Made by a program: the position numbers and the translations under genes
From: Escherichia phage vB_EcoM_FJ1
Length of the DNA stretch: 64,000 bases
Sequence record: MZ170040.1
Direction: 5' to 3' (one strand)
Notes under the pieces: model-generated
Databases searched by the model: none
The model's input: only the letters and a program-made list of their open reading frames with translations
Told to the model about the DNA's origin: nothing
Part shown: in pieces, positions 13,388 to 61,613 of the stretch
How the letters are laid out: each line of letters begins with the position of its first letter
How positions within the stretch are numbered: the stretch's first letter is position 1

Positions 13388-15367
13388 ATGACTTTATTAT
13401 CTCCGGGCATTGAGCTCAAAGAAACTACGGTTCAAAGCACCGTGGTTAATAACTCTACTGGTACAGCAGCTTTGGCCGGTAAATTCCAGTGGGGTCCTGC
13501 TTTTCAAATTAAACAGGTTACAAATGAAGTAGATTTAGTTAATACTTTTGGTCAACCAACCGCTGAAACTGCTGACTATTTTATGTCTGCGATGAATTTC
13601 TTGCAGTATGGAAATGACTTACGAGTTGTTCGTGCTGTTGATAGAGATACCGCTAAAAACTCATCGCCAATTGCTGGTAATATTGAATACACAATTTCTA
13701 CCCCAGGTAGTAACTATGCAGTTGGAGATAAAATCACGGTCAAATATGTTTCAGATGATATTGAAACTGAAGGTAAAATTACCGAAGTAGACGCAGATGG
13801 AAAAATTAAGAAAATTAATATTCCTACTGCAAAAATTATCGCTAAAGCGAAAGAAGTCGGTGAATATCCAGCACTAGGTTCTAACTGGACTGCAGAAATT
13901 TCTTCGTCTTCCTCCGGTTTAGCTGCAGTAATAACTCTTGGAAAAATTATTACTGATTCTGGTATTTTATTAGCTGAAATTGAAAATGCTGAAGCTGCTA
14001 TGACAGCGGTTGACTTTCAAACAAATCTTAAAAAATACGGAATTCCAGGAGTAGTAGCTCTTTATCCAGGCGAATTAGGCGATAAAATTGAAATTGAAAT
14101 CGTATCTAAAGCTGACTACGCAAAAGGGGCTTCTGCATTACTCCCAATTTATCCAGGTGGTGGTACTCGTGCATCTACTGCTAAAGCAGTGTTTGGATAT
14201 GGACCACAAACTGATTCACAGTACGCTATTATAGTTCGTCGCAATGATGCTATTGTTCAAAGTGTTGTTCTTTCAACTAAGCGTGGTGAAAAAGATATTT
14301 ACGATAGTAACATTTATATCGATGACTTTTTCGCAAAAGGTGGTTCAGAATATATTTTCGCAACTGCACAAAACTGGCCAGAAGGCTTCTCTGGAATTTT
14401 AACTCTGTCTGGTGGTTTATCATCAAATGCTGAAGTAACAGCAGGAGATTTGATGGAAGCTTGGGACTTCTTTGCTGACCGCGAATCTGTTGATGTTCAG
14501 TTGTTTATTGCGGGTTCTTGTGCCGGTGAATCTTTAGAAACAGCATCTACTGTCCAAAAACACGTCGTTTCAATTGGGGATGCTCGCCAGGATTGCTTAG
14601 TACTGTGCTCACCACCGCGTGAAACTGTAGTTGGAATTCCTGTAACTCGTGCAGTAGATAATTTAGTTAACTGGAGAACTGCGGCAGGTTCATACACTGA
14701 TAATAACTTTAATATCAGTTCAACCTACGCAGCAATTGATGGTAACTATAAGTATCAGTATGACAAATATAATGATGTGAATCGTTGGGTTCCATTAGCA
14801 GCTGATATTGCTGGTTTATGCGCAAGAACTGATAACGTATCTCAGACTTGGATGTCTCCAGCTGGTTATAAGCGTGGCCAGATTCTTAACGTTATTAAAC
14901 TGGCTATTGAAACTCGCCAGGCTCAGCGCGACCGTTTATACCAAGAAGCTATCAACCCGGTAACTGGTACAGGTGGTGATGGTTACGTATTGTATGGTGA
15001 TAAAACAGCTACTTCTGTTCCTTCTCCATTTGATCGTATTAACGTTCGTCGTCTGTTTAATATGTTGAAAACGAACATCGGACGTAGTTCAAAATATCGT
15101 TTGTTCGAATTAAACAACGCGTTTACTCGTTCATCATTCCGCACAGAAACTGCCCAGTACTTACAGGGAATTAAAGCTCTCGGTGGAATTTATGAATATC
15201 GTGTAGTTTGCGATACAACAAATAACACTCCGTCAGTAATTGATAGAAATGAGTTTGTTGCAACATTCTACATCCAACCGGCTAGAAGCATTAACTACAT
15301 TACCTTAAACTTCGTAGCAACTGCTACTGGTGCAGATTTCGATGAGTTAACTGGTCTTGCAGGTTAA
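13388..15367 (+). CDS. 18: tail sheath protein gp18
   Basis: 659 aa, matches T4 gp18. Confidence 0.95.
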   Translation: MTLLSPGIELKETTVQSTVVNNSTGTAALAGKFQWGPAFQIKQVTNEVDLVNTFGQPTAETADYFMSAMNFLQYGNDLRVVRAVDRDTAKNSSPIAGNIEYTISTPGSNYAVGDKITVKYVSDDIETEGKITEVDADGKIKKINIPTAKIIAKAKEVGEYPALGSNWTAEISSSSSGLAAVITLGKIITDSGILLAEIENAEAAMTAVDFQTNLKKYGIPGVVALYPGELGDKIEIEIVSKADYAKGASALLPIYPGGGTRASTAKAVFGYGPQTDSQYAIIVRRNDAIVQSVVLSTKRGEKDIYDSNIYIDDFFAKGGSEYIFATAQNWPEGFSGILTLSGGLSSNAEVTAGDLMEAWDFFADRESVDVQLFIAGSCAGESLETASTVQKHVVSIGDARQDCLVLCSPPRETVVGIPVTRAVDNLVNWRTAAGSYTDNNFNISSTYAAIDGNYKYQYDKYNDVNRWVPLAADIAGLCARTDNVSQTWMSPAGYKRGQILNVIKLAIETRQAQRDRLYQEAINPVTGTGGDGYVLYGDKTATSVPSPFDRINVRRLFNMLKTNIGRSSKYRLFELNNAFTRSSFRTETAQYLQGIKALGGIYEYRVVCDTTNNTPSVIDRNEFVATFYIQPARSINYITLNFVATATGADFDELTGLAG

Positions 15368-22747: not shown

Positions 22748-22768
22748 GGGACCTTTCGGTCCCTTTTT
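22748..22768. terminator. terminator hairpin between convergent genes 24 (+) and rnlB (-)
   Basis: GGGACC-TTTC-GGTCCC followed by TTTTTATTT. Confidence 0.65.
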
Positions 22769-22770
22769 AT

Positions 22771-23775
22771 TTAACTTACCAATTCAATCCAAGCCGGACG
22801 AAGTACATCTTGTACCATTTTAACTAATTCCTTTTTAATCAAAGAAGGATTATCCGCTTGAGTTAGAGTAATACCTTCACGAGAAGTTTCTTCCAAAATA
22901 TCTTGAACAGTTAGTCCCATCACCTTTCCAAAATCTTTTGGACCAATTTCGCCAATTTTAGAAATAACGTTATTTACTCGGTTTAGTGTAACGTAACAAG
23001 CTAAAATCCCCACCAATTTGTTATCAGCTTCTGACAGTTCAACTTTAGCTTTAATAGGCTTATCAGACTTTTTCTTTTCACTAAATTTAGAATTCTTGCA
23101 TTTGATGGCTACACGATTGCGATTAGGCAGCCAAGAAGGATAACAAGGTTTCAATACATATCCTTCAGCGGTAAATACTTCGTCTTTGGCTTCAGCTTTC
23201 CAAACACATTTGTTAGCGTCAATTAAACCTGCATTATCTACGGTAAAATTATAAGACGGAACAACAGAATCCAAATCATTTGGCAATTTAATAAGCTCTT
23301 CAAATTTACCGCGACCTAAAAGTGGAGCCATTTTAAATTTAAATGTATTGCAGAATGATTCCATCATATAATCGTCGACATAAGTCACATCACCACTTTC
23401 TGTAGTGACAATAATGTCAAATACATAAAAATCTTTATCACCATAATCAACATTCTTCTGAATGCCAGGTCCAGCGAATTCGCCAAAGACTTGATAAGAC
23501 ACAACCGCTGAGGTTTCCATAATATCTTGTACTGCTTTAATGGAATCAGCGTAATTCTTTAGAATAATTTCATACCCAAAGAAATCTTCAGCAGGAAGAA
23601 TAGGACCAGTACGTTTAGCGCAAGTTACTTTATCGCGCTCAATAATCAACGAGAAATTTGTACCATGAATCTTTTCACGAGCTACCCATTCGCCGCCAGT
23701 CAATCCCAAGCTATAAAGTTTTTCAATAAATTTAGAGTTGTAATGATTTTCAAGACTGCTATACTTTTTAAACAT
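22771..23775 (-). CDS. rnlB: RNA ligase 2
   Basis: 334 aa; sequence recognised as T4 Rnl2. Confidence 0.95.
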
Positions 23776-24354: not shown

Positions 24355-26349
24355 TTATGGATAGGTATAGATGATACCAGTTTCTAAAGCAGTTTTATGA
24401 ATGATGTATCCATTACGCGATTCTTGGACATCAACTTCTGGATAGTCTTTCATCATCTTCTGAAGAGTGTAACGATGCAGGTAGTATTTACTATCTGGAT
24501 CGTCAGTTTTCCAATCTTTACCTTCTTCGGTCATTTTTTGGATTTCATCCATAACCCACCAACCGCACCAGATGTAAGCTGAAGTGCGATGTGGAAGAGG
24601 ATGAACATAAGGCAATTCACCTTCTGGTTCTGGAGCAACTTTATCAGTTACCTGAACTTGACCTTCTGCTGTGATAGTTTTGCTATCATAATCAGTAGCA
24701 GTAACAGTTGCAGTAACTTCAATAGTTTGACTTCCAATAGATGATGTATCAACAGTGTATACATTAGTTGACCCTTCTACTGGAGAAGAATCTTTCTTCC
24801 ATGAATATTCGATTTGTGCTTCTTCTGGAGCATCCGTAACATTAGCAGTAAATGTAGCCGAAGCATCTTGCTGAACGTTAATAGAAGGAGGAGTCAATGT
24901 AACCCGTGGATTCATTGTTTTCTTATTAACAGTCAATGATACTTCATTAGAAGTAACTTCCTTTTCATTGTAATTTTCTGCAGTTACTTGCGCTACACAC
25001 TTAACTGTTTTAGCTCCAACTGTGGTAGGAGTATAGTTAAATGTAGTAGTAGTTTCTCCATCGACCAGAGAACCGTCAACATACCACTGATACGTAGCAG
25101 ACGCTCCTGGTGGCTGTGAAGCCAAGGCAGCAGTAAATTGAACTGGGGTTCCAATTACTGCTGCAGCAGGATTAGCAGGAGTTACGGCTAACGTAGTTGT
25201 CTGTGTTTTCTTATTAACTGTTAATGATACTTCATTAGAAGTAACTGTTTTTGCGTCATAATCTGTTGCTGTTACTTGCGCTACACATTTAATTCTTTTT
25301 ACTCCACTTGTAGTTGGAGTATAGCTAAATGTAGCAGAAGTCGCTTCACCAATTTGAGAATCATCTACATACCACTGATACGTAGCAGATGCCCCATCAG
25401 GTTGAGAAGCTAAGGCAGCAGTAAATTCAACGGCTGTTCCAATTACTCCTGCTGGAGGACTATCAGGAGTTACAGATAGGGTAGTCGTTTGTGTTTTCTT
25501 GTTAACAGTCAAAGATACTTCATTCGAAGTAACTTCCTTTTCATTGTAATTTTCAGCAGTTACTTGGGCTACGCATTTAATTCTTTTAACCCCACTTGTA
25601 GTTGGAGTGTAATTGAACGTAGCATTAGTTTCTCCACCAACTTGTGAATCATCTACATACCACTGATACGTAGCAGATGCTCCTAGCGGCTGCGAAGCTA
25701 AGGCAGCAGTAAATTGAACTGGGGTTCCAATTACTCCTGCTGGAGGACTATCAGGAGTTACTGCCAAAGTAGTCGTCTGCGTCTTTTTATTAACAGTCAG
25801 TGATACTTCATTAGAAGTAACGCTTAGTGTATCATAATCTGCCGCAGTTACTTGAGCTACACACTTGATTTTTTTAACTCCGCTTGTGTCAGGAGTGTAA
25901 TTGAATGTAGCGTCAGTTGCTTCGTCTACAGGAGAACCGTCAACGTGCCATTGATACGTAGCGTTTGCACCTGATGGCTGTGAAGCTAAGGCAGCGGTAA
26001 ATTGAACTGGGGTTCCAATCACTCCAGCATCAGGGCTACCAGGAGTTACTGCCAACGTAGTTGACTGAGTTTTATTTTGAACTGTGATAGTTGTACTAAT
26101 TTCAGCTGTTTCAGGTTCAGATTCTGCAACTTGATTGGTTGCAACTACTTTAATAGTCTTTTGACCGGCAGGTCCTTTTAGTACATAACTAAAAGTTGCT
26201 GACGTTTCTTCCTGTGGAGCGTCGTCTACAGTCCAAGCATATGTAATAGGTCCATCTCCAGTTTGACCACTGGGTGTAGCAGTAAACTGCTGAGTCTGAT
26301 CTATAACTCCAGTAGGTGTTTTAGGAGTTATATCAACTGTAAAAGTCAT
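24355..26349 (-). CDS. hoc: highly immunogenic outer capsid protein Hoc, expanded form with extra Ig-like domains
   Basis: 664 aa; N- and C-terminal regions recognised as Hoc; internal 4 x 96-aa tandem units. Confidence 0.9.
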   Translation of the reverse strand: MTFTVDITPKTPTGVIDQTQQFTATPSGQTGDGPITYAWTVDDAPQEETSATFSYVLKGPAGQKTIKVVATNQVAESEPETAEISTTITVQNKTQSTTLAVTPGSPDAGVIGTPVQFTAALASQPSGANATYQWHVDGSPVDEATDATFNYTPDTSGVKKIKCVAQVTAADYDTLSVTSNEVSLTVNKKTQTTTLAVTPDSPPAGVIGTPVQFTAALASQPLGASATYQWYVDDSQVGGETNATFNYTPTTSGVKRIKCVAQVTAENYNEKEVTSNEVSLTVNKKTQTTTLSVTPDSPPAGVIGTAVEFTAALASQPDGASATYQWYVDDSQIGEATSATFSYTPTTSGVKRIKCVAQVTATDYDAKTVTSNEVSLTVNKKTQTTTLAVTPANPAAAVIGTPVQFTAALASQPPGASATYQWYVDGSLVDGETTTTFNYTPTTVGAKTVKCVAQVTAENYNEKEVTSNEVSLTVNKKTMNPRVTLTPPSINVQQDASATFTANVTDAPEEAQIEYSWKKDSSPVEGSTNVYTVDTSSIGSQTIEVTATVTATDYDSKTITAEGQVQVTDKVAPEPEGELPYVHPLPHRTSAYIWCGWWVMDEIQKMTEEGKDWKTDDPDSKYYLHRYTLQKMMKDYPEVDVQESRNGYIIHKTALETGIIYTYP
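24925..26076 (-). repeat. four in-frame tandem 288-bp repeats inside hoc, each encoding one Ig-like domain
   Basis: Protein units begin NK(K)TQ(S/T)TTL and end SNEVSLTVN at residues 92, 188, 284, 380; 288-bp periodicity visible in DNA. Confidence 0.85.
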
Positions 26350-37750: not shown

Positions 37751-37780
37751 GGGGACCTTTCGGTCCCCATATTTTTATTT
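37751..37780. terminator. bidirectional terminator between gene 54 (+) and minus-strand ORF
   Basis: GGGGACC-TTTC-GGTCCCC followed by ATATTTTTATTT. Confidence 0.65.
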
Positions 37781-38065
37781 ACGGAATGAAATGAAAGCAG
37801 AAACTGAAGCAACTAAACTGTCTTCAATATAAACTTCAATTTTTACCGGAGCTTCTGACTCAAATTTACCTGTTACTACACCCTGAAAAATACTTTCAGT
37901 CTGTTCTGGCTTTGAAAAATTTTCAGAAGGAAAAATTCCGAACTTTTTATCTGTTCCAAAAATTTTAATAAATTCATCGTAAACCGCTTCGTTAAAAGCA
38001 TTATCAGCAGGAATAACGCCTTCAACTACAAGTTCTTGACCTAAAAAGCGTAAAGAAGATTTCAT
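37775..38065 (-). CDS. hypothetical protein (T4 alt.-3 position)
   Basis: 96 aa ATG ORF preceded by GAGGA; driven by the repeated early promoter cassette. Confidence 0.65.
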   Translation of the reverse strand: MKSSLRFLGQELVVEGVIPADNAFNEAVYDEFIKIFGTDKKFGIFPSENFSKPEQTESIFQGVVTGKFESEAPVKIEVYIEDSLVASVSAFISFRK

Positions 38066-38072
38066 TTTGTGT

Positions 38073-38126
38073 TCCTCATGTTATGTCAGTAAGACTACTA
38101 TAACACAACACGAGGGACTTGTAAAC
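38073..38126 (-). repeat. 54-bp early-promoter cassette copy A (PeSL-like), identical to 52347-52400
   Basis: Exact 54/54 match; minus strand reads GTTTAC-N17-TTATAG...ACATAACATGAGGA (-35, -10, leader, SD). Confidence 0.8.
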
Positions 38127-38483
38127 TACATTTTGAACTTTTTAGTACGCGTAATAGGCATGCGTCGATTTTATACTGTTTCATTGTTTGAAGAGCAGTA
38201 TCAAAAACAGCATTAATGACGCCAATTGGATTTCCACCCAAGTTTTTAAGTTTAACTAATGATAGTTTCTCATTAACACCTATCATTACGATATGCATCA
38301 TTTTGTCGCCTGGTTTAACGTTTTATCTGTATCACCGCCAGAGGTGTATGTACAAAATCTAAATCCAGGAAGCACGCTTTCTTCGCCGGCTTGAATAGCA
38401 AAAATTTGTGGTATTTTATGCTTAGGATTTAAGTTAACAACCGGCGCCGAAGCGCCGTCAAATAATTATGTAATAAGTTCCAT
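38098..38483 (-). pseudogene. decayed tandem partial copy of the alt 5' region (Alt N-terminal paralog fragment)
   Basis: Starts ATGGAACTTATTACATAA 3 nt after alt stop (MELIT then in-frame TAA); continues with LFDG...NLNPKHKIPQIF...FCTYTSGGDT and, after a frameshift, MMHIV...KQYKIDACLLRVLKS, all homologous to Alt residues 1-120. Confidence 0.7.
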
Positions 38484-38486
38484 GAT

Positions 38487-49746: not shown

Positions 49747-50971
<1,225 letters not shown>

Positions 50972-51495: not shown

Positions 51496-51845
51496 TTAGA
51501 AAGGTCCTGGATGTCTTCTGCGAACTTGTTGAAGGAGTTGTTGATTTGTTTTTCAACCAATCCTGGCTTATGAGCCACCACATCCGCCTTCTTTGCGTCT
51601 TTGCGCAGTTTTTCATTTTCACGCTCAATAGCAGCAATTGCCTCACGATTTTTATTATTCATCGCATCAATATAATTATACTGAATTCGCAAATTATTTA
51701 ATGCTAAGGCGTTTTCATTGGCCGTTTTTGTAATTTCTACAACAGACGTTTCTAATCTTTCAATTTTATTTTTTAAAATTAAAGAAGTTCCGCCCAATGC
51801 AATTACAATTAATAGCAAGCCTGCTGTCGTATTACTTAATTGCAT
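51492..51845 (-). CDS. i-spanin, inner-membrane protein (T4 pseT.3 equivalent)
   Basis: 117 aa; N-terminal transmembrane helix then coiled-coil-like periplasmic part. Confidence 0.75.
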   Translation of the reverse strand: MQLSNTTAGLLLIVIALGGTSLILKNKIERLETSVVEITKTANENALALNNLRIQYNYIDAMNNKNREAIAAIERENEKLRKDAKKADVVAHKPGLVEKQINNSFNKFAEDIQDLSK

Positions 51846-52342
51846 AAAGTTTTAATAACCTCTATAATATCGTCTTGAGAAAGACCGTTAATTAAAATAT
51901 GATGTTCAGCCGGAGATTTAGAAATTTTAAAGCATGCCTCAACATCTTCTGCCATATCCGATGCGCTACGATTTGGATTACTAATCCCAAGGCGGTGTTT
52001 TCCCGTCAAAGGATTAACGATGATATAGCATTTACAACTATTGATATGAACATTAGGCTGAGTCTGATTAATGAACACTTCACAATCATACTTAGCGAGT
52101 TGATTTTCTAAAAAGACTTTCATCTCTTCAACCGCATCAGGAAGCATATCACGGGCTTGCTCAAGACGACGATTTCGATATTCTTTAATGGTCGTTTTCC
52201 GCTTGACTTGCTTAGCTAAATCTTTCTTAAGATCAGTGATATATCCAACTCGACGATTTCCTTTGAATACCGAAATCCCATCTGTAGTATCACCGTATGC
52301 TTCAACGACCATTTCAGTAGTAATAAGTTGTAAATCCATCAT
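51836..52342 (-). CDS. alc: Alc, inhibitor of host transcription elongation
   Basis: 168 aa, length and position between rnlA and the spanins match T4 Alc. Confidence 0.8.
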   Translation of the reverse strand: MMDLQLITTEMVVEAYGDTTDGISVFKGNRRVGYITDLKKDLAKQVKRKTTIKEYRNRRLEQARDMLPDAVEEMKVFLENQLAKYDCEVFINQTQPNVHINSCKCYIIVNPLTGKHRLGISNPNRSASDMAEDVEACFKISKSPAEHHILINGLSQDDIIEVIKTLCN

Positions 52343-52346
52343 AAAG

Positions 52347-52400
52347 TCCTCATGTTATGTCAGTAAGACTACTATAACACAACACGAGGGACTTGTAAAC
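52347..52400 (-). repeat. 54-bp early-promoter cassette copy B (PeSL-like), identical to 38073-38126
   Basis: Exact repeat; occupies the entire rnlA-alc intergenic space and supplies -35, -10 and SD for alc. Confidence 0.8.
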
Positions 52401-52403
52401 AGC

Positions 52404-53991
<1,588 letters not shown>

Positions 53992-60879: not shown

Positions 60880-61245
60880 CTACTTTTTGAAAGTTTTTCG
60901 CAAAAGTTCAATGATTTCATCTACATTGTTTTCGTCAACAATGCAGTGAATTTTTGTTACGCCAGAAACCTTGTCTTTGACTTCATCTTCTTCAGAAGTC
61001 GGTTCTTTATACTCACGAAAACAATGAAATTCATCTTCGCAGACGTTGAAGTAAAAATGCTTTCCATTGGCGCATTCTACGTGTTTTACTACTTTAAATC
61101 CATCAGCAAAGAAAACTTCTTTAACTTCAAACCATCCGCCATTTTCTTGAATAGCTTTAACTATTAATGAATTAGAACGCGGGCGATAATTAATAAATGT
61201 ATCAATAAGTCTTGGAACAAGTTCGTACTTTTTATCAATATACAT
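60880..61245 (-). CDS. hypothetical protein with Cys/His cluster
   Basis: 121 aa ATG ORF; HVECANGKHFYFNVCEDEFHCF segment. Confidence 0.55.
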   Translation of the reverse strand: MYIDKKYELVPRLIDTFINYRPRSNSLIVKAIQENGGWFEVKEVFFADGFKVVKHVECANGKHFYFNVCEDEFHCFREYKEPTSEEDEVKDKVSGVTKIHCIVDENNVDEIIELLRKTFKK

Positions 61246-61520: not shown

Positions 61521-61613
61521 ATTGTTTTCCTCTTTAATCATCAGCAGTATTGCCGATAGTTGTATAGTACCATAAAGCTTTATGCTTGTAAACCGTTTTG
61601 TGAAAAAATTTTT

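What the first reader, a model, noticed from the sequence alone, without database searches (positions are those of the whole stretch)
52347..52400. Identical 54-bp early-promoter cassette, copy B, filling the rnlA-alc intergenic gap
This is the second exact copy of the 54-bp element (see 38073-38126). It occupies the whole interval between the rnlA stop (52404) and the alc start (52342), so alc expression here appears to depend on the shared cassette. Exact identity over 54 bp at two sites 14 kb apart in an otherwise diverged region suggests recent transfer or gene conversion.
Basis: partly seen in the sequence, partly recalled or inferred. Interest (0 to 1): 0.45.

Follow-up and report, generated by a model that had tools for sequence, protein, structure and literature searches.

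The report
Duplicated T4 early promoter–RBS cassette
The 54-bp exact repeat is real: it is an ordinary T4-type early promoter with a short leader and ribosome-binding site, sitting in front of two early genes (alc and alt.-3) in T4 and all 499 sequenced relatives that match it, so it is a conserved, largely known feature and not a recent transfer.

Summary
Observation confirmed: 52347-52400 and 38073-38126 are identical over exactly 54 bp, the flanks are unrelated, and chance expectation is 0.

The functional strand is minus. The element reads GTTTAC(-35), 17-bp spacer, TGn + TATAGT(-10), an ~18-nt unstructured leader, then the Shine-Dalgarno GAGGA. The ATG of alc (copy B) or alt.-3 (copy A) follows 4-7 nt later.

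The window is a Tequatrovirus. The 54-mer occurs in 499 phage records (997 places, essentially two per record), including T4 itself, which has 54/54 at alc and 53/54 at alt.-3. One record annotates a promoter at both sites.

Published T4 data fit a MotA-independent promoter at both sites. Both genes are early at RNA and protein level. In a motA-/dksA- infection, alc RNA density is about 6.5 times that of upstream rnlA.

"Recent transfer" is not supported. Gene conversion is plausible. In 25 genomes the two loci show no fixed difference, share 6 variants and 6 haplotypes (including the linked 29A+32A), and are identical in 8 genomes (permutation p = 0.00035).

It lacks the stem-loop of a PeSL cassette. 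The repeats bracket essential genes 30 and 31, so deletion recombinants would be inviable. Direct repeats cannot give inversions.

Ordinary and low interest, with a small population-genetic curiosity.

The parts
52347..52400 (-). Copy B of the cassette. GTTTAC/-35 (TTTACA) at 52399-52394; TG at 52379-52378; -10 TATAGT at 52376-52371; predicted transcription start about 52364; Shine-Dalgarno GAGGA at 52351-52347.
   Evidence: (10/12 sigma-70 match, 17-bp spacer, TG present). The start site is inferred from its distance to the -10 hexamer.
38073..38126 (-). Copy A of the cassette. -35 at 38125-38120; -10 at 38102-38097; predicted transcription start about 38090; Shine-Dalgarno GAGGA at 38077-38073.
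51836..52342 (-). alc, the inhibitor of host transcription, driven by copy B. It has a double ATG at 52342 and 52339; the T4 annotation corresponds to the second, which lies 7 nt after GAGGA.
   Evidence: ORF; PF17527, 7.9e-92; annotation in relatives and in T4.
37775..38065 (-). alt.-3 (DUF5498, 96 aa), driven by copy A. Its ATG lies 7 nt after GAGGA.
   Evidence: ORF; PF17602, 5.4e-64; T4 annotation.
52404..53528 (-). rnlA (RNA ligase 1). Its 3' end forms the upstream flank of copy B, which has no A-tract UP-like sequence between -37 and -56.
38098..38301 (-). alt.-2, a remnant ORF of a second alt paralog. Its out-of-frame tail reads 29 nt into copy A and stops at the TAG inside the -10 region. 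The 19 nt just upstream of copy A (38127-38145, CTAAAAAGTTCAAAATGTA) come from the original 3' end of the full-length paralog and carry A-tracts like those upstream of another early promoter in the window.

Best explanation
The element is a sigma-70 T4-type early promoter fused to a short leader and ribosome-binding site. It is present twice in every matching Tequatrovirus record, once in front of alc and once in front of alt.-3.

How it works. Immediately after infection, unmodified host RNA polymerase binds GTTTAC(-35), the 17-bp spacer and TGn+TATAGT(-10). Transcription should start about 7 nt downstream of the -10 hexamer. The resulting ~18-nt unstructured leader ends in GAGGA, which places ribosomes on the ATG 4-7 nt further on. 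Both genes therefore receive the same core promoter and the same translation-initiation region.

How the two sites differ. The upstream UP-element context lies outside the repeat. Copy A has A-tracts like those of other early promoters in the window. Copy B abuts the RnlA C-terminal codons and has none.

History (inferred). One promoter module was copied onto the other site in the ancestor of the genus. The relatives Mosigvirus and Gaprivervirus have early promoters at the same two sites, but these are no more alike than any two early promoters. Since then the two 54-bp tracts appear to have exchanged sequence occasionally by non-crossover ectopic recombination (gene conversion), within genomes or between co-infecting genomes. 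Crossover products are lost because the interval holds essential genes.
For: Shown here:
- Exact 54-bp repeat with sharp ends.
- Promoter anatomy: 10/12 consensus match, 17-bp spacer and extended -10 TG at both copies. It fits the T4 early consensus 'GTTTAC(N14)gtggTAttaT' quoted in a record annotation.
- Four other GTTTAC-type early promoters on the same strand of the window match the cassette or each other at only 27-38 of 54 positions, so 54/54 is beyond what the consensus gives.
- The 54-mer occurs in 499 records at 997 places, including T4. T4 has 54/54 at alc and 53/54 at alt.-3.
- The record vB_EcoM_Lutter annotates a 'promoter' at both sites.
- The leader is unstructured (z about 0). 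No Rfam family matches anywhere in the window.

From published T4 data:
- alc and alt.-3 are classed early at RNA and protein level, whereas the upstream alt.-1 and alt.-2 are 'middle' RNA (PMC9697503 supplement).
- My per-nt calculation from the counts in the PMC6024815 supplement: in wild-type host infected with T4 motAam, alt.-1, alt.-2 and alt.-3 give 7.9, 17.4 and 43.7 reads/nt. In the dksA deletion host with motAam, rnlA gives 3.9 and alc 25.6 reads/nt. Both alc and alt.-3 rise in motAam while rnlA falls.

For conversion (25 genomes with both copies):
- Mean distance between A and B is 2.12 within a genome and 2.38 between genomes, against 2.58 for A-A and 1.84 for B-B. There is no fixed difference between the loci.
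- Six identical variants (16A, 27C, 29A, 32A, 33A, 34T) and 6 haplotypes occur at both loci, including the linked pairs 29A+32A and 32A+34T.
- 29A occurs at locus B only in genomes where locus A has it (PP01, UFV10). 27C occurs at locus A only where locus B has it.
- Eight of 25 genomes have A identical to B (permutation p = 0.00035).

Outside the genus, the A-B similarity is 39/54 in Mosigvirus moha, where another promoter pair scores 38/54, and 25/54 in Gaprivervirus VR20.
Against: - No transcription start site was mapped here. The +1 position is inferred from spacing.
- I could not read the primary T4 early-promoter lists (Liebig and Ruger 1989; Miller et al. 2003), so 'experimentally mapped Pe' is not verified for these two sites.
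- The RNA-seq evidence consists of gene-level counts and comes from T4, not from this phage.
- The -10 hexamer is imperfect (TATAGT), and many isolates carry TACAGT at the alc copy.
- Conversion is not proven. All shared variants except 33A are transitions clustered around the -10 and start region, where recurrent mutation or selection for promoter tuning could produce the same pattern. The site-overlap p value rises from 0.0003 to 0.06 if only about 25 of the 54 sites are free to vary.
- Several shared variants (32A, 33A, 34T, 16A) are not found at both loci in the same genome.
- The 25 genomes are not phylogenetically independent.
Confidence: 0.8

Rival explanations
1. Same promoter-RBS module, but identity is kept only by common descent plus purifying selection on a strong promoter and leader. 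The polymorphisms shared by the two loci are recurrent mutations at the few tolerated sites, with no gene conversion.
For: Five of the six shared variants are transitions, and they lie in or near the -10 and start region and at one spacer site. If only about 25 sites are free to vary, the overlap p value is 0.06. Variants 32A, 33A, 34T and 16A often sit at different loci in different genomes. The commonest haplotype is the same at both loci (7 and 7 of 25), as retention of an ancestral state would predict.
Against: Two-site haplotypes (29A+32A; 32A+34T) recur at both loci. 29A at locus B and 27C at locus A occur only in genomes whose other locus carries them. Divergence between the paralogous loci is no greater than divergence among orthologous copies, which is unexpected after genus-wide divergence without exchange. 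Natural variation inside the -10 hexamer (TACAGT, TATAAT, TATAGT) argues against very tight selection.
Confidence: 0.3
2. It is a PeSL-type mobile regulatory cassette (promoter-early stem-loop). Its main significance would be to mediate excision and insertion of the DNA between copies as mini-circles, driving modular gene shuffling.
For: PeSLs are conserved early promoter + Shine-Dalgarno + ATG modules reported in T4-like phages, including the PST/T4 pair with consensus TTTACW-N17-TAYWAT. Recombination between copies was shown by inverse PCR (PMC2839356 and PMC4122927). The cassette here has the same promoter-to-SD extent, and crossovers in PeSLs were mapped between the -10 and the SD or ATG.
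Against: There is no stem-loop or terminator upstream of either copy (0 found; z = 0.29 and 0.95). The -10 TATAGT does not fit TAYWAT. The copies are 14.3 kb apart and bracket a block conserved in gene order across three genera that includes genes 30 and 31, not a variable ORFan. None of the 25 genomes I read in full has lost the interval. The only indel next to copy A, the alt-paralog deletion, used a 9-bp microhomology 19 bp away from the cassette, not the cassette itself.
Confidence: 0.12
3. The repeat is an assembly or sequencing artefact, or a chance match.
For: None beyond the general possibility.
Against: Chance expectation is 0.00. The same two-site arrangement occurs in 499 independently sequenced records and in IMG/VR contigs.
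Confidence: 0.01
4. The conserved 54-mer is primarily something other than a promoter, for example a binding site for a phage protein, a MotA-dependent middle promoter, a late promoter, or a small structured RNA.
For: Identity extends beyond the consensus hexamers through the spacer and the leader.
Against: The cassette contains no MotA box (TGCTT) and no TATAAATA (sequence read). There is no Rfam hit. The leader shows no significant fold. alc and alt.-3 RNA increase in a motA amber infection. Identity through the spacer and leader is explained by duplication.
Confidence: 0.04

Closest known systems
Bacteriophage T4 early promoters (Pe), sigma-70 'UP/-35/TGn/-10' class (reviewed in PMC2988021)
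   Same: GTTTAC -35 motif, 17-bp spacer, TGn, TAnnnT -10, location directly upstream of early genes, orientation with the early transcription units. The identical sequence is present in T4 in front of alc, and a 53/54 copy in front of alt.-3.
   Different: The two sites are identical over the whole promoter, leader and SD, whereas other early promoters in the window share only 27-38 of 54 positions. The -10 is TATAGT rather than TATAAT. Copy B lacks an A-tract UP region.
PeSL (promoter-early stem-loop) cassettes of T4-like phages (Arbiol et al. 2010, PMC2839356; Comeau et al. 2014, PMC4122927)
   Same: A repeated module running from the early promoter to the SD and ATG, a potential substrate for homologous recombination between copies.
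   Different: No upstream stem-loop. Only two copies, 14.3 kb apart, bracketing conserved and essential genes rather than variable ORFans. No associated gene-content variation was seen in 25 genomes.
Concerted evolution of dispersed short repeats by ectopic gene conversion, together with the roughly 50-bp minimum homology for T4 recombination (Singer et al. 1982, Cell 31:25; cited from memory, not checked here)
   Same: Two dispersed copies share a common haplotype pool with no fixed differences. The tract is bounded exactly by the ends of the homology.
   Different: The tract is only 54 bp, near the lower limit recalled for T4 recombination. Exchange has not been observed directly, and recurrent mutation remains an alternative.

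Membership tests
T4 early promoter (Pe) | -35 region GTTTAC / TTTACA | tested here: met
   GTTTAC lies at cassette positions 1-6, and TTTACA matches TTGACA at 5 of 6 positions, in both copies.
T4 early promoter (Pe) | 17-bp spacer, TGn extended -10, and a TAnnnT -10 hexamer | tested here: met
   Spacer 17, TG present, -10 TATAGT (5/6), total 10/12. Fits 'GTTTAC(N14)gtggTAttaT' as quoted in the annotation seen.
T4 early promoter (Pe) | A/T-rich UP element between -40 and -60 | tested here: inconclusive
   This region lies outside the repeat. Copy A has A-tracts (CTAAAAAGTTCAAAATGTA) resembling those upstream of the promoter at 60880. In copy B, positions -37 to -56 are RnlA codons without A-tracts, and an A/T-rich tract lies further upstream.
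T4 early promoter (Pe) | Active immediately after infection with unmodified host RNA polymerase, independent of MotA/AsiA | tested here: met
   The evidence is indirect, from published T4 data for the same sequence. Both genes are early at RNA and protein level. Both RNAs rise in motAam infections. alc gives 25.6 reads/nt against 3.9 for rnlA in dksA-deletion/motAam. alt.-3 gives 43.7 against 17.4 for alt.-2 in wt/motAam. No start site has been mapped for this phage.
PeSL cassette | Early promoter followed by SD and the start codon of the downstream ORF | tested here: met
   GAGGA ends the repeat, and the ATG follows 4-7 nt later at both sites.
PeSL cassette | Stem-loop (terminator-like) just upstream of the promoter | tested here: not met
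   No terminator-like site was found between rnlA and alc. The 70-nt upstream segments fold no better than shuffles (z = 0.29 and 0.95). The weak hairpin near copy A lies on the opposite strand and is absent from T6-type genomes.
PeSL cassette | Clustered copies flanking variable ORFs in hyperplastic regions, associated with indels | tested here: not met
   Two copies 14,274 bp apart enclose alt through alc, including genes 30 and 31. Gene order is conserved in T4, T6, PP01, Mosigvirus and Gaprivervirus. The nearby alt-paralog deletion used a different 9-bp microhomology.
PeSL cassette | Recombination between copies producing mini-circles or deletions | not testable with these tools
   This needs inverse PCR or long-read data from infected cells or phage stocks.
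T4 middle (MotA-dependent) promoter | MotA box (a/t)(a/t)TGCTT(t/c)a centred at -30 | tested here: not met
   There is no TGCTT in the cassette (sequence). RNA of both genes increases in motAam.
T4 late promoter | TATAAATA at -10 | tested here: not met
   Absent from the 54-mer.

The most novel reading that the evidence does not exclude
The two 54-bp modules are kept as one evolving unit by ongoing ectopic gene conversion across 14 kb, at about the minimum homology length for T4 recombination. That would make them a natural, genus-wide reporter of short-homology conversion in lytic phage populations. A further, more speculative reading is that the identical promoter, leader and RBS reflects selection for matched early expression of Alc and the uncharacterised Alt.-3, hinting at a functional link between them.
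Probability: 0.45. Interest if true: 0.35.

Novelty: already known. Interest (0 to 1): 0.17.

Why it matters
For annotation it settles what the repeat is: the early promoter and ribosome-binding module of alc and of alt.-3, inherited from the Tequatrovirus ancestor. It is not a sign of recent horizontal transfer or misassembly.

There are two modest points of wider use. First, the same core promoter and leader sits behind two different upstream contexts, one with A-tracts and one without. This is a natural experiment on the contribution of UP elements, and of Alt ADP-ribosylation, to T4 early promoter strength. Second, the shared haplotype pool of the two loci suggests that 54 bp of homology is enough for detectable gene conversion in natural T4-like populations. 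This could be quantified from existing genomes.

alt.-3 has recently attracted interest because C-terminal extensions of it let T4 escape the CmdTAC defence system (PMC11618068). Knowing its dedicated early promoter is useful context.

Tried and rejected
- Chance or artefact: rejected.
- Recent transfer: rejected, because the pair is genus-wide.
- Full PeSL membership: rejected for lack of a stem-loop and of any association with variable ORFs.
- Middle or late promoter, or structured RNA: rejected.
- Cassette as the endpoint of the alt-paralog deletion: rejected. Alignment to T6 shows a 1,699-bp deletion between two CTAAAAAGT microhomologies, the right-hand one 19 bp upstream of the cassette, plus a 1-nt frameshift.
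- Concerted evolution across genera: not supported. In Mosigvirus moha the alc and alt.-3 promoters match at 39/54, no better than another promoter pair at 38/54. In Gaprivervirus VR20 they match at 25/54.
- Literature. Miller et al. 2003 (PMC150520) is not held. Full-text search for the cassette sequence found no paper. No T4 Cappable-seq or TSS paper was found. The PeSL paper has no supplement held, so I could not check whether its PST/T4 PeSL list includes these two sites.
- IMG/VR gave only 5 contigs per site, so the comparative sample rests mainly on GenBank records.
- My first regex extraction missed some copies. I redid it with flank anchors.

Full report
**1. The observation**

The two stretches 38073-38126 and 52347-52400 are identical over exactly 54 bp. 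Identity ends abruptly on both sides, with no extension, and the 70-nt flanks match only at random. A search allowing 3 mismatches finds just these two sites, and 100 dinucleotide-preserving shuffles gave none.

- The rnlA stop codon occupies 52404-52406 on the minus strand.
- An ATG of alc lies at 52342, immediately followed by a second ATG at 52339.
- The T4 annotation gives a 167-aa Alc, which corresponds to the second ATG. That ATG lies 7 nt after the Shine-Dalgarno sequence.
- The repeat fills 54 of the 61 intergenic nucleotides.

**2. Anatomy**

The meaningful strand is minus:

GTTTACAAGTCCCTCGTGTTGTGTTATAGTAGTCTTACTGACATAACATGAGGA

The consensus scan finds the same arrangement at both copies: TTTACA, a 17-bp spacer, and TATAGT preceded by TG, for 10 of 12 matches. 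This fits the T4 early-promoter pattern 'GTTTAC(N14)gtggTAttaT' quoted in one record's annotation. It also fits the 'UP/-35/TGn/-10' description of T4 early promoters in the Hinton review (PMC2988021).

A start about 7 nt after the -10 hexamer would be at cassette position 37, that is 52364 for copy B and 38090 for copy A. This is inferred, not mapped. It leaves an ~18-nt leader ending in GAGGA, with the ATG 4-7 nt further on. The leader with the first codons folds no better than shuffled sequence. The window contains no Rfam family at gathering threshold.

The cassette is therefore a core promoter plus leader plus ribosome-binding site, and nothing more.

**3. The genes**

Downstream of copy B is Alc (PF17527, 7.9e-92). 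Downstream of copy A is Alt.-3 (DUF5498, 5.4e-64). Upstream of copy B is RnlA.

Upstream of copy A is alt.-2. Together with alt.-1 it is the remnant of a second alt paralog that is full length (about 685 aa) in T6, PP01, P8 and many other relatives. Alignment to T6 shows two changes in the window:
- a 1-nt frameshift;
- a 1,699-bp deletion between two CTAAAAAGT microhomologies.

The right-hand microhomology lies 19 bp upstream of the cassette, so the cassette itself was not the deletion endpoint. The alt.-2 ORF then runs out of frame into the cassette and stops at the TAG inside the -10 region.

**4. Distribution**

The window is a Tequatrovirus. The rnlA-alc region is 99.1% identical to Shigella phage vb_GEC_SH_GT and 95-99% identical to most of the 499 matching records.

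The 54-mer is found in 499 phage records at 997 places, essentially two per record. All matches are at least 94% identical. The records include T4, T6, PP01 and RB33. In T4 (NC_000866) the copy upstream of alc is 54/54 identical to the window, and the copy upstream of alt.-3 is 53/54. One record, vB_EcoM_Lutter, annotates a 'promoter' at both sites.

'Recent transfer' is therefore not tenable.

Outside the genus the same two intergenic gaps also hold GTTTAC-type early promoters, but these are not duplicates of each other.
- In Mosigvirus moha they match at 39/54. Another promoter pair in the same locus reaches 38/54.
- In Gaprivervirus VR20 they match at 25/54.

Within the window, the four other GTTTAC promoters on the minus strand (starting at 61593, 60880, 49075 and 44991) match the cassette or each other at only 27-38 of 54 positions. 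So 54/54 reflects duplication or replacement in the Tequatrovirus lineage, not convergence on a consensus.

**5. Evidence that it works as an early promoter**

I could not read the classical T4 promoter lists. Two open data sets on T4 are informative.

In the time-resolved omics study (PMC9697503 supplement):
- alc and alt.-3 are early at both RNA and protein level;
- alt.-1 and alt.-2, directly upstream, are classed 'middle' at RNA level;
- rnlA is early at RNA level and late at protein level.

From the RNA-seq count table of PMC6024815 (5 min after infection) I calculated read densities by dividing mean reads by gene length:

| Infection | Gene | Reads/nt |
|---|---|---|
| wild-type host, T4 motAam | alt.-1 | 7.9 |
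| wild-type host, T4 motAam | alt.-2 | 17.4 |
| wild-type host, T4 motAam | alt.-3 | 43.7 |
| dksA-deletion host, T4 motAam | rnlA | 3.9 |
| dksA-deletion host, T4 motAam | alc | 25.6 |

Both alc and alt.-3 rise in motAam (1.6-fold and 2.4-fold), whereas rnlA falls (0.68-fold). This is what a MotA-independent promoter sited exactly at the two cassettes would give.

No terminator separates rnlA from alc. Read-through can therefore also contribute, and 'alc depends on the cassette' is only partly right.

**6. Gene conversion**

I extracted both copies from 25 genomes: GenBank records, and IMG/VR contigs. Extraction is and statistics.

| Comparison | Mean differences over 54 nt |
|---|---|
| A vs B, same genome | 2.12 |
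| A vs B, different genomes | 2.38 |
| A vs A | 2.58 |
| B vs B | 1.84 |

There is no fixed difference between the two loci. Further points:
- Six identical variants occur at both loci: 16A, 27C, 29A, 32A, 33A and 34T.
- Six haplotypes occur at both loci, including the two-site haplotypes 29A+32A and 32A+34T.
- 29A is common at locus A (6 genomes). At locus B it occurs only in PP01 and UFV10, which also carry it at A.
- 27C is common at locus B (11 genomes). At locus A it occurs only in two genomes that also carry it at B.
- Eight of 25 genomes have A identical to B (permutation p = 0.00035).

This is the pattern expected from occasional non-crossover exchange between the copies.

There are caveats.
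- The genomes are phylogenetically related, not independent.
- All shared variants except 33A are transitions clustered around the -10 and start region.
- The site-overlap test weakens from p = 0.0003 to p = 0.06 if only about 25 sites are free to vary.
- Several shared variants are never seen at both loci of the same genome.

I rate conversion as more likely than not (about 0.55-0.6) but unproven.

**7. Comparison with known systems**

As a promoter, the element is a standard member of the T4 early class.

The nearest described repeated-cassette concept is the PeSL (PMC2839356, PMC4122927). A PeSL runs from an upstream stem-loop through the early promoter to the SD and ATG, and recombination between copies was shown by inverse PCR. 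The present element shares the promoter-to-SD extent but fails two defining features:
- there is no upstream stem-loop;
- it is not clustered around variable ORFs.

The two copies bracket 14.3 kb that includes DNA ligase (gene 30) and the co-chaperonin (gene 31). Both are essential by established T4 genetics. Crossover deletions would therefore be inviable. A 14-kb duplication would probably exceed the headful capacity; this is my inference. Direct repeats do not yield inversions.

It would not recover viable recombinants.

**8. A detail worth noting**

The upstream context differs between the copies. Copy A is preceded by CTAAAAAGTTCAAAATGTA, with A-tracts near -50 and -42. This closely resembles the sequence upstream of the early promoter at 60880 (GAAAAACTTTCAAAAAGTA). 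Copy B is preceded by the last RnlA codons and has no A-tracts between -37 and -56. The same core promoter thus sits in a canonical and a non-canonical UP context. This may also hint that the module originated at the alt.-3 site; that is inference only.

**9. Verdict**

The promoter interpretation is right, the 'recent transfer' idea is wrong, and gene conversion is plausible.

The element is present, identical, in T4 itself and is annotated as a promoter in at least one public record. I therefore class it as already known and of low interest. The only new-looking aspect is the shared haplotype pool of the two loci across the genus.

Noticed in passing
window 38098-38486 (alt.-1/alt.-2); junction at 38145/38146: The T4-type alt.-1/alt.-2 ORFs are what remains of a full-length second Alt ADP-ribosyltransferase paralog (about 685 aa in T6, PP01, P8, RB33 and others). 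They differ from it by a 1-nt frameshift and a 1,699-bp deletion between two CTAAAAAGT microhomologies. The T4 RefSeq note describes them only as 'an old duplication of the first part of gene alt'.
   Followed up: yes
window minus strand, promoters starting at 61593, 60880, 49075 and 44991: Four further GTTTAC-N17/18-TAnnnT early-promoter-like sites. Several have A-tract upstream regions, and those at 60880 and 49075 are followed by a GGAG/GAGGA ribosome-binding site and an ATG. They match each other at only 27-38 of 54 positions.
   Followed up: partly
window 24916-26079: Four tandem copies of a 288-nt unit at 78-85% identity (family D1). By position relative to genes 48 and 54 this is probably the run of Ig-like domains in hoc. 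Not verified.
   Followed up: no
window 37751-37768, and 22748-22794: A GC-rich hairpin, GGGGACCTTTCGGTCCCC, lies between the convergent genes 54 and alt.-3 and scores as a terminator on both strands. A related GGGACCTTTCGGTCCC hairpin lies at 22748 (family D8).
   Followed up: no
window 50651-50971 (minus strand): A 106-aa ORF lies between pseT.1 and pseT. It is absent from the T4 annotation for this interval but is present at the same position in many relatives (for example PP01_228 and ACG-C40_0219).
   Followed up: no
L034 (Gaprivervirus VR20) 14623-14928: VR20 has an extra small ORF annotated 'similar to T4 Alc' between rnlA and alc. The promoter-like sequence upstream of it (GTGTACAAGCCCCT...) is embedded in a GGGG...CCCC hairpin and matches the first 14 nt of the Tequatrovirus cassette at 12 of 14 positions.
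   Followed up: partly
cassette position 27 (window 52374 and 38100) in relatives: Eleven of 25 genomes carry T-to-C at the third base of the -10 hexamer (TACAGT) in the alc copy. Six carry G-to-A at position 29, giving the perfect TATAAT, in the alt.-3 copy. This is natural variation that should change promoter strength.
   Followed up: partly
window 52404-53564: The mechanical ORF for rnlA starts at a GTG and is 386 aa long. Relatives annotate 374 aa (1,125 nt), starting at the internal ATG (MQELFNN...), which gives 52404-53528.
   Followed up: partly
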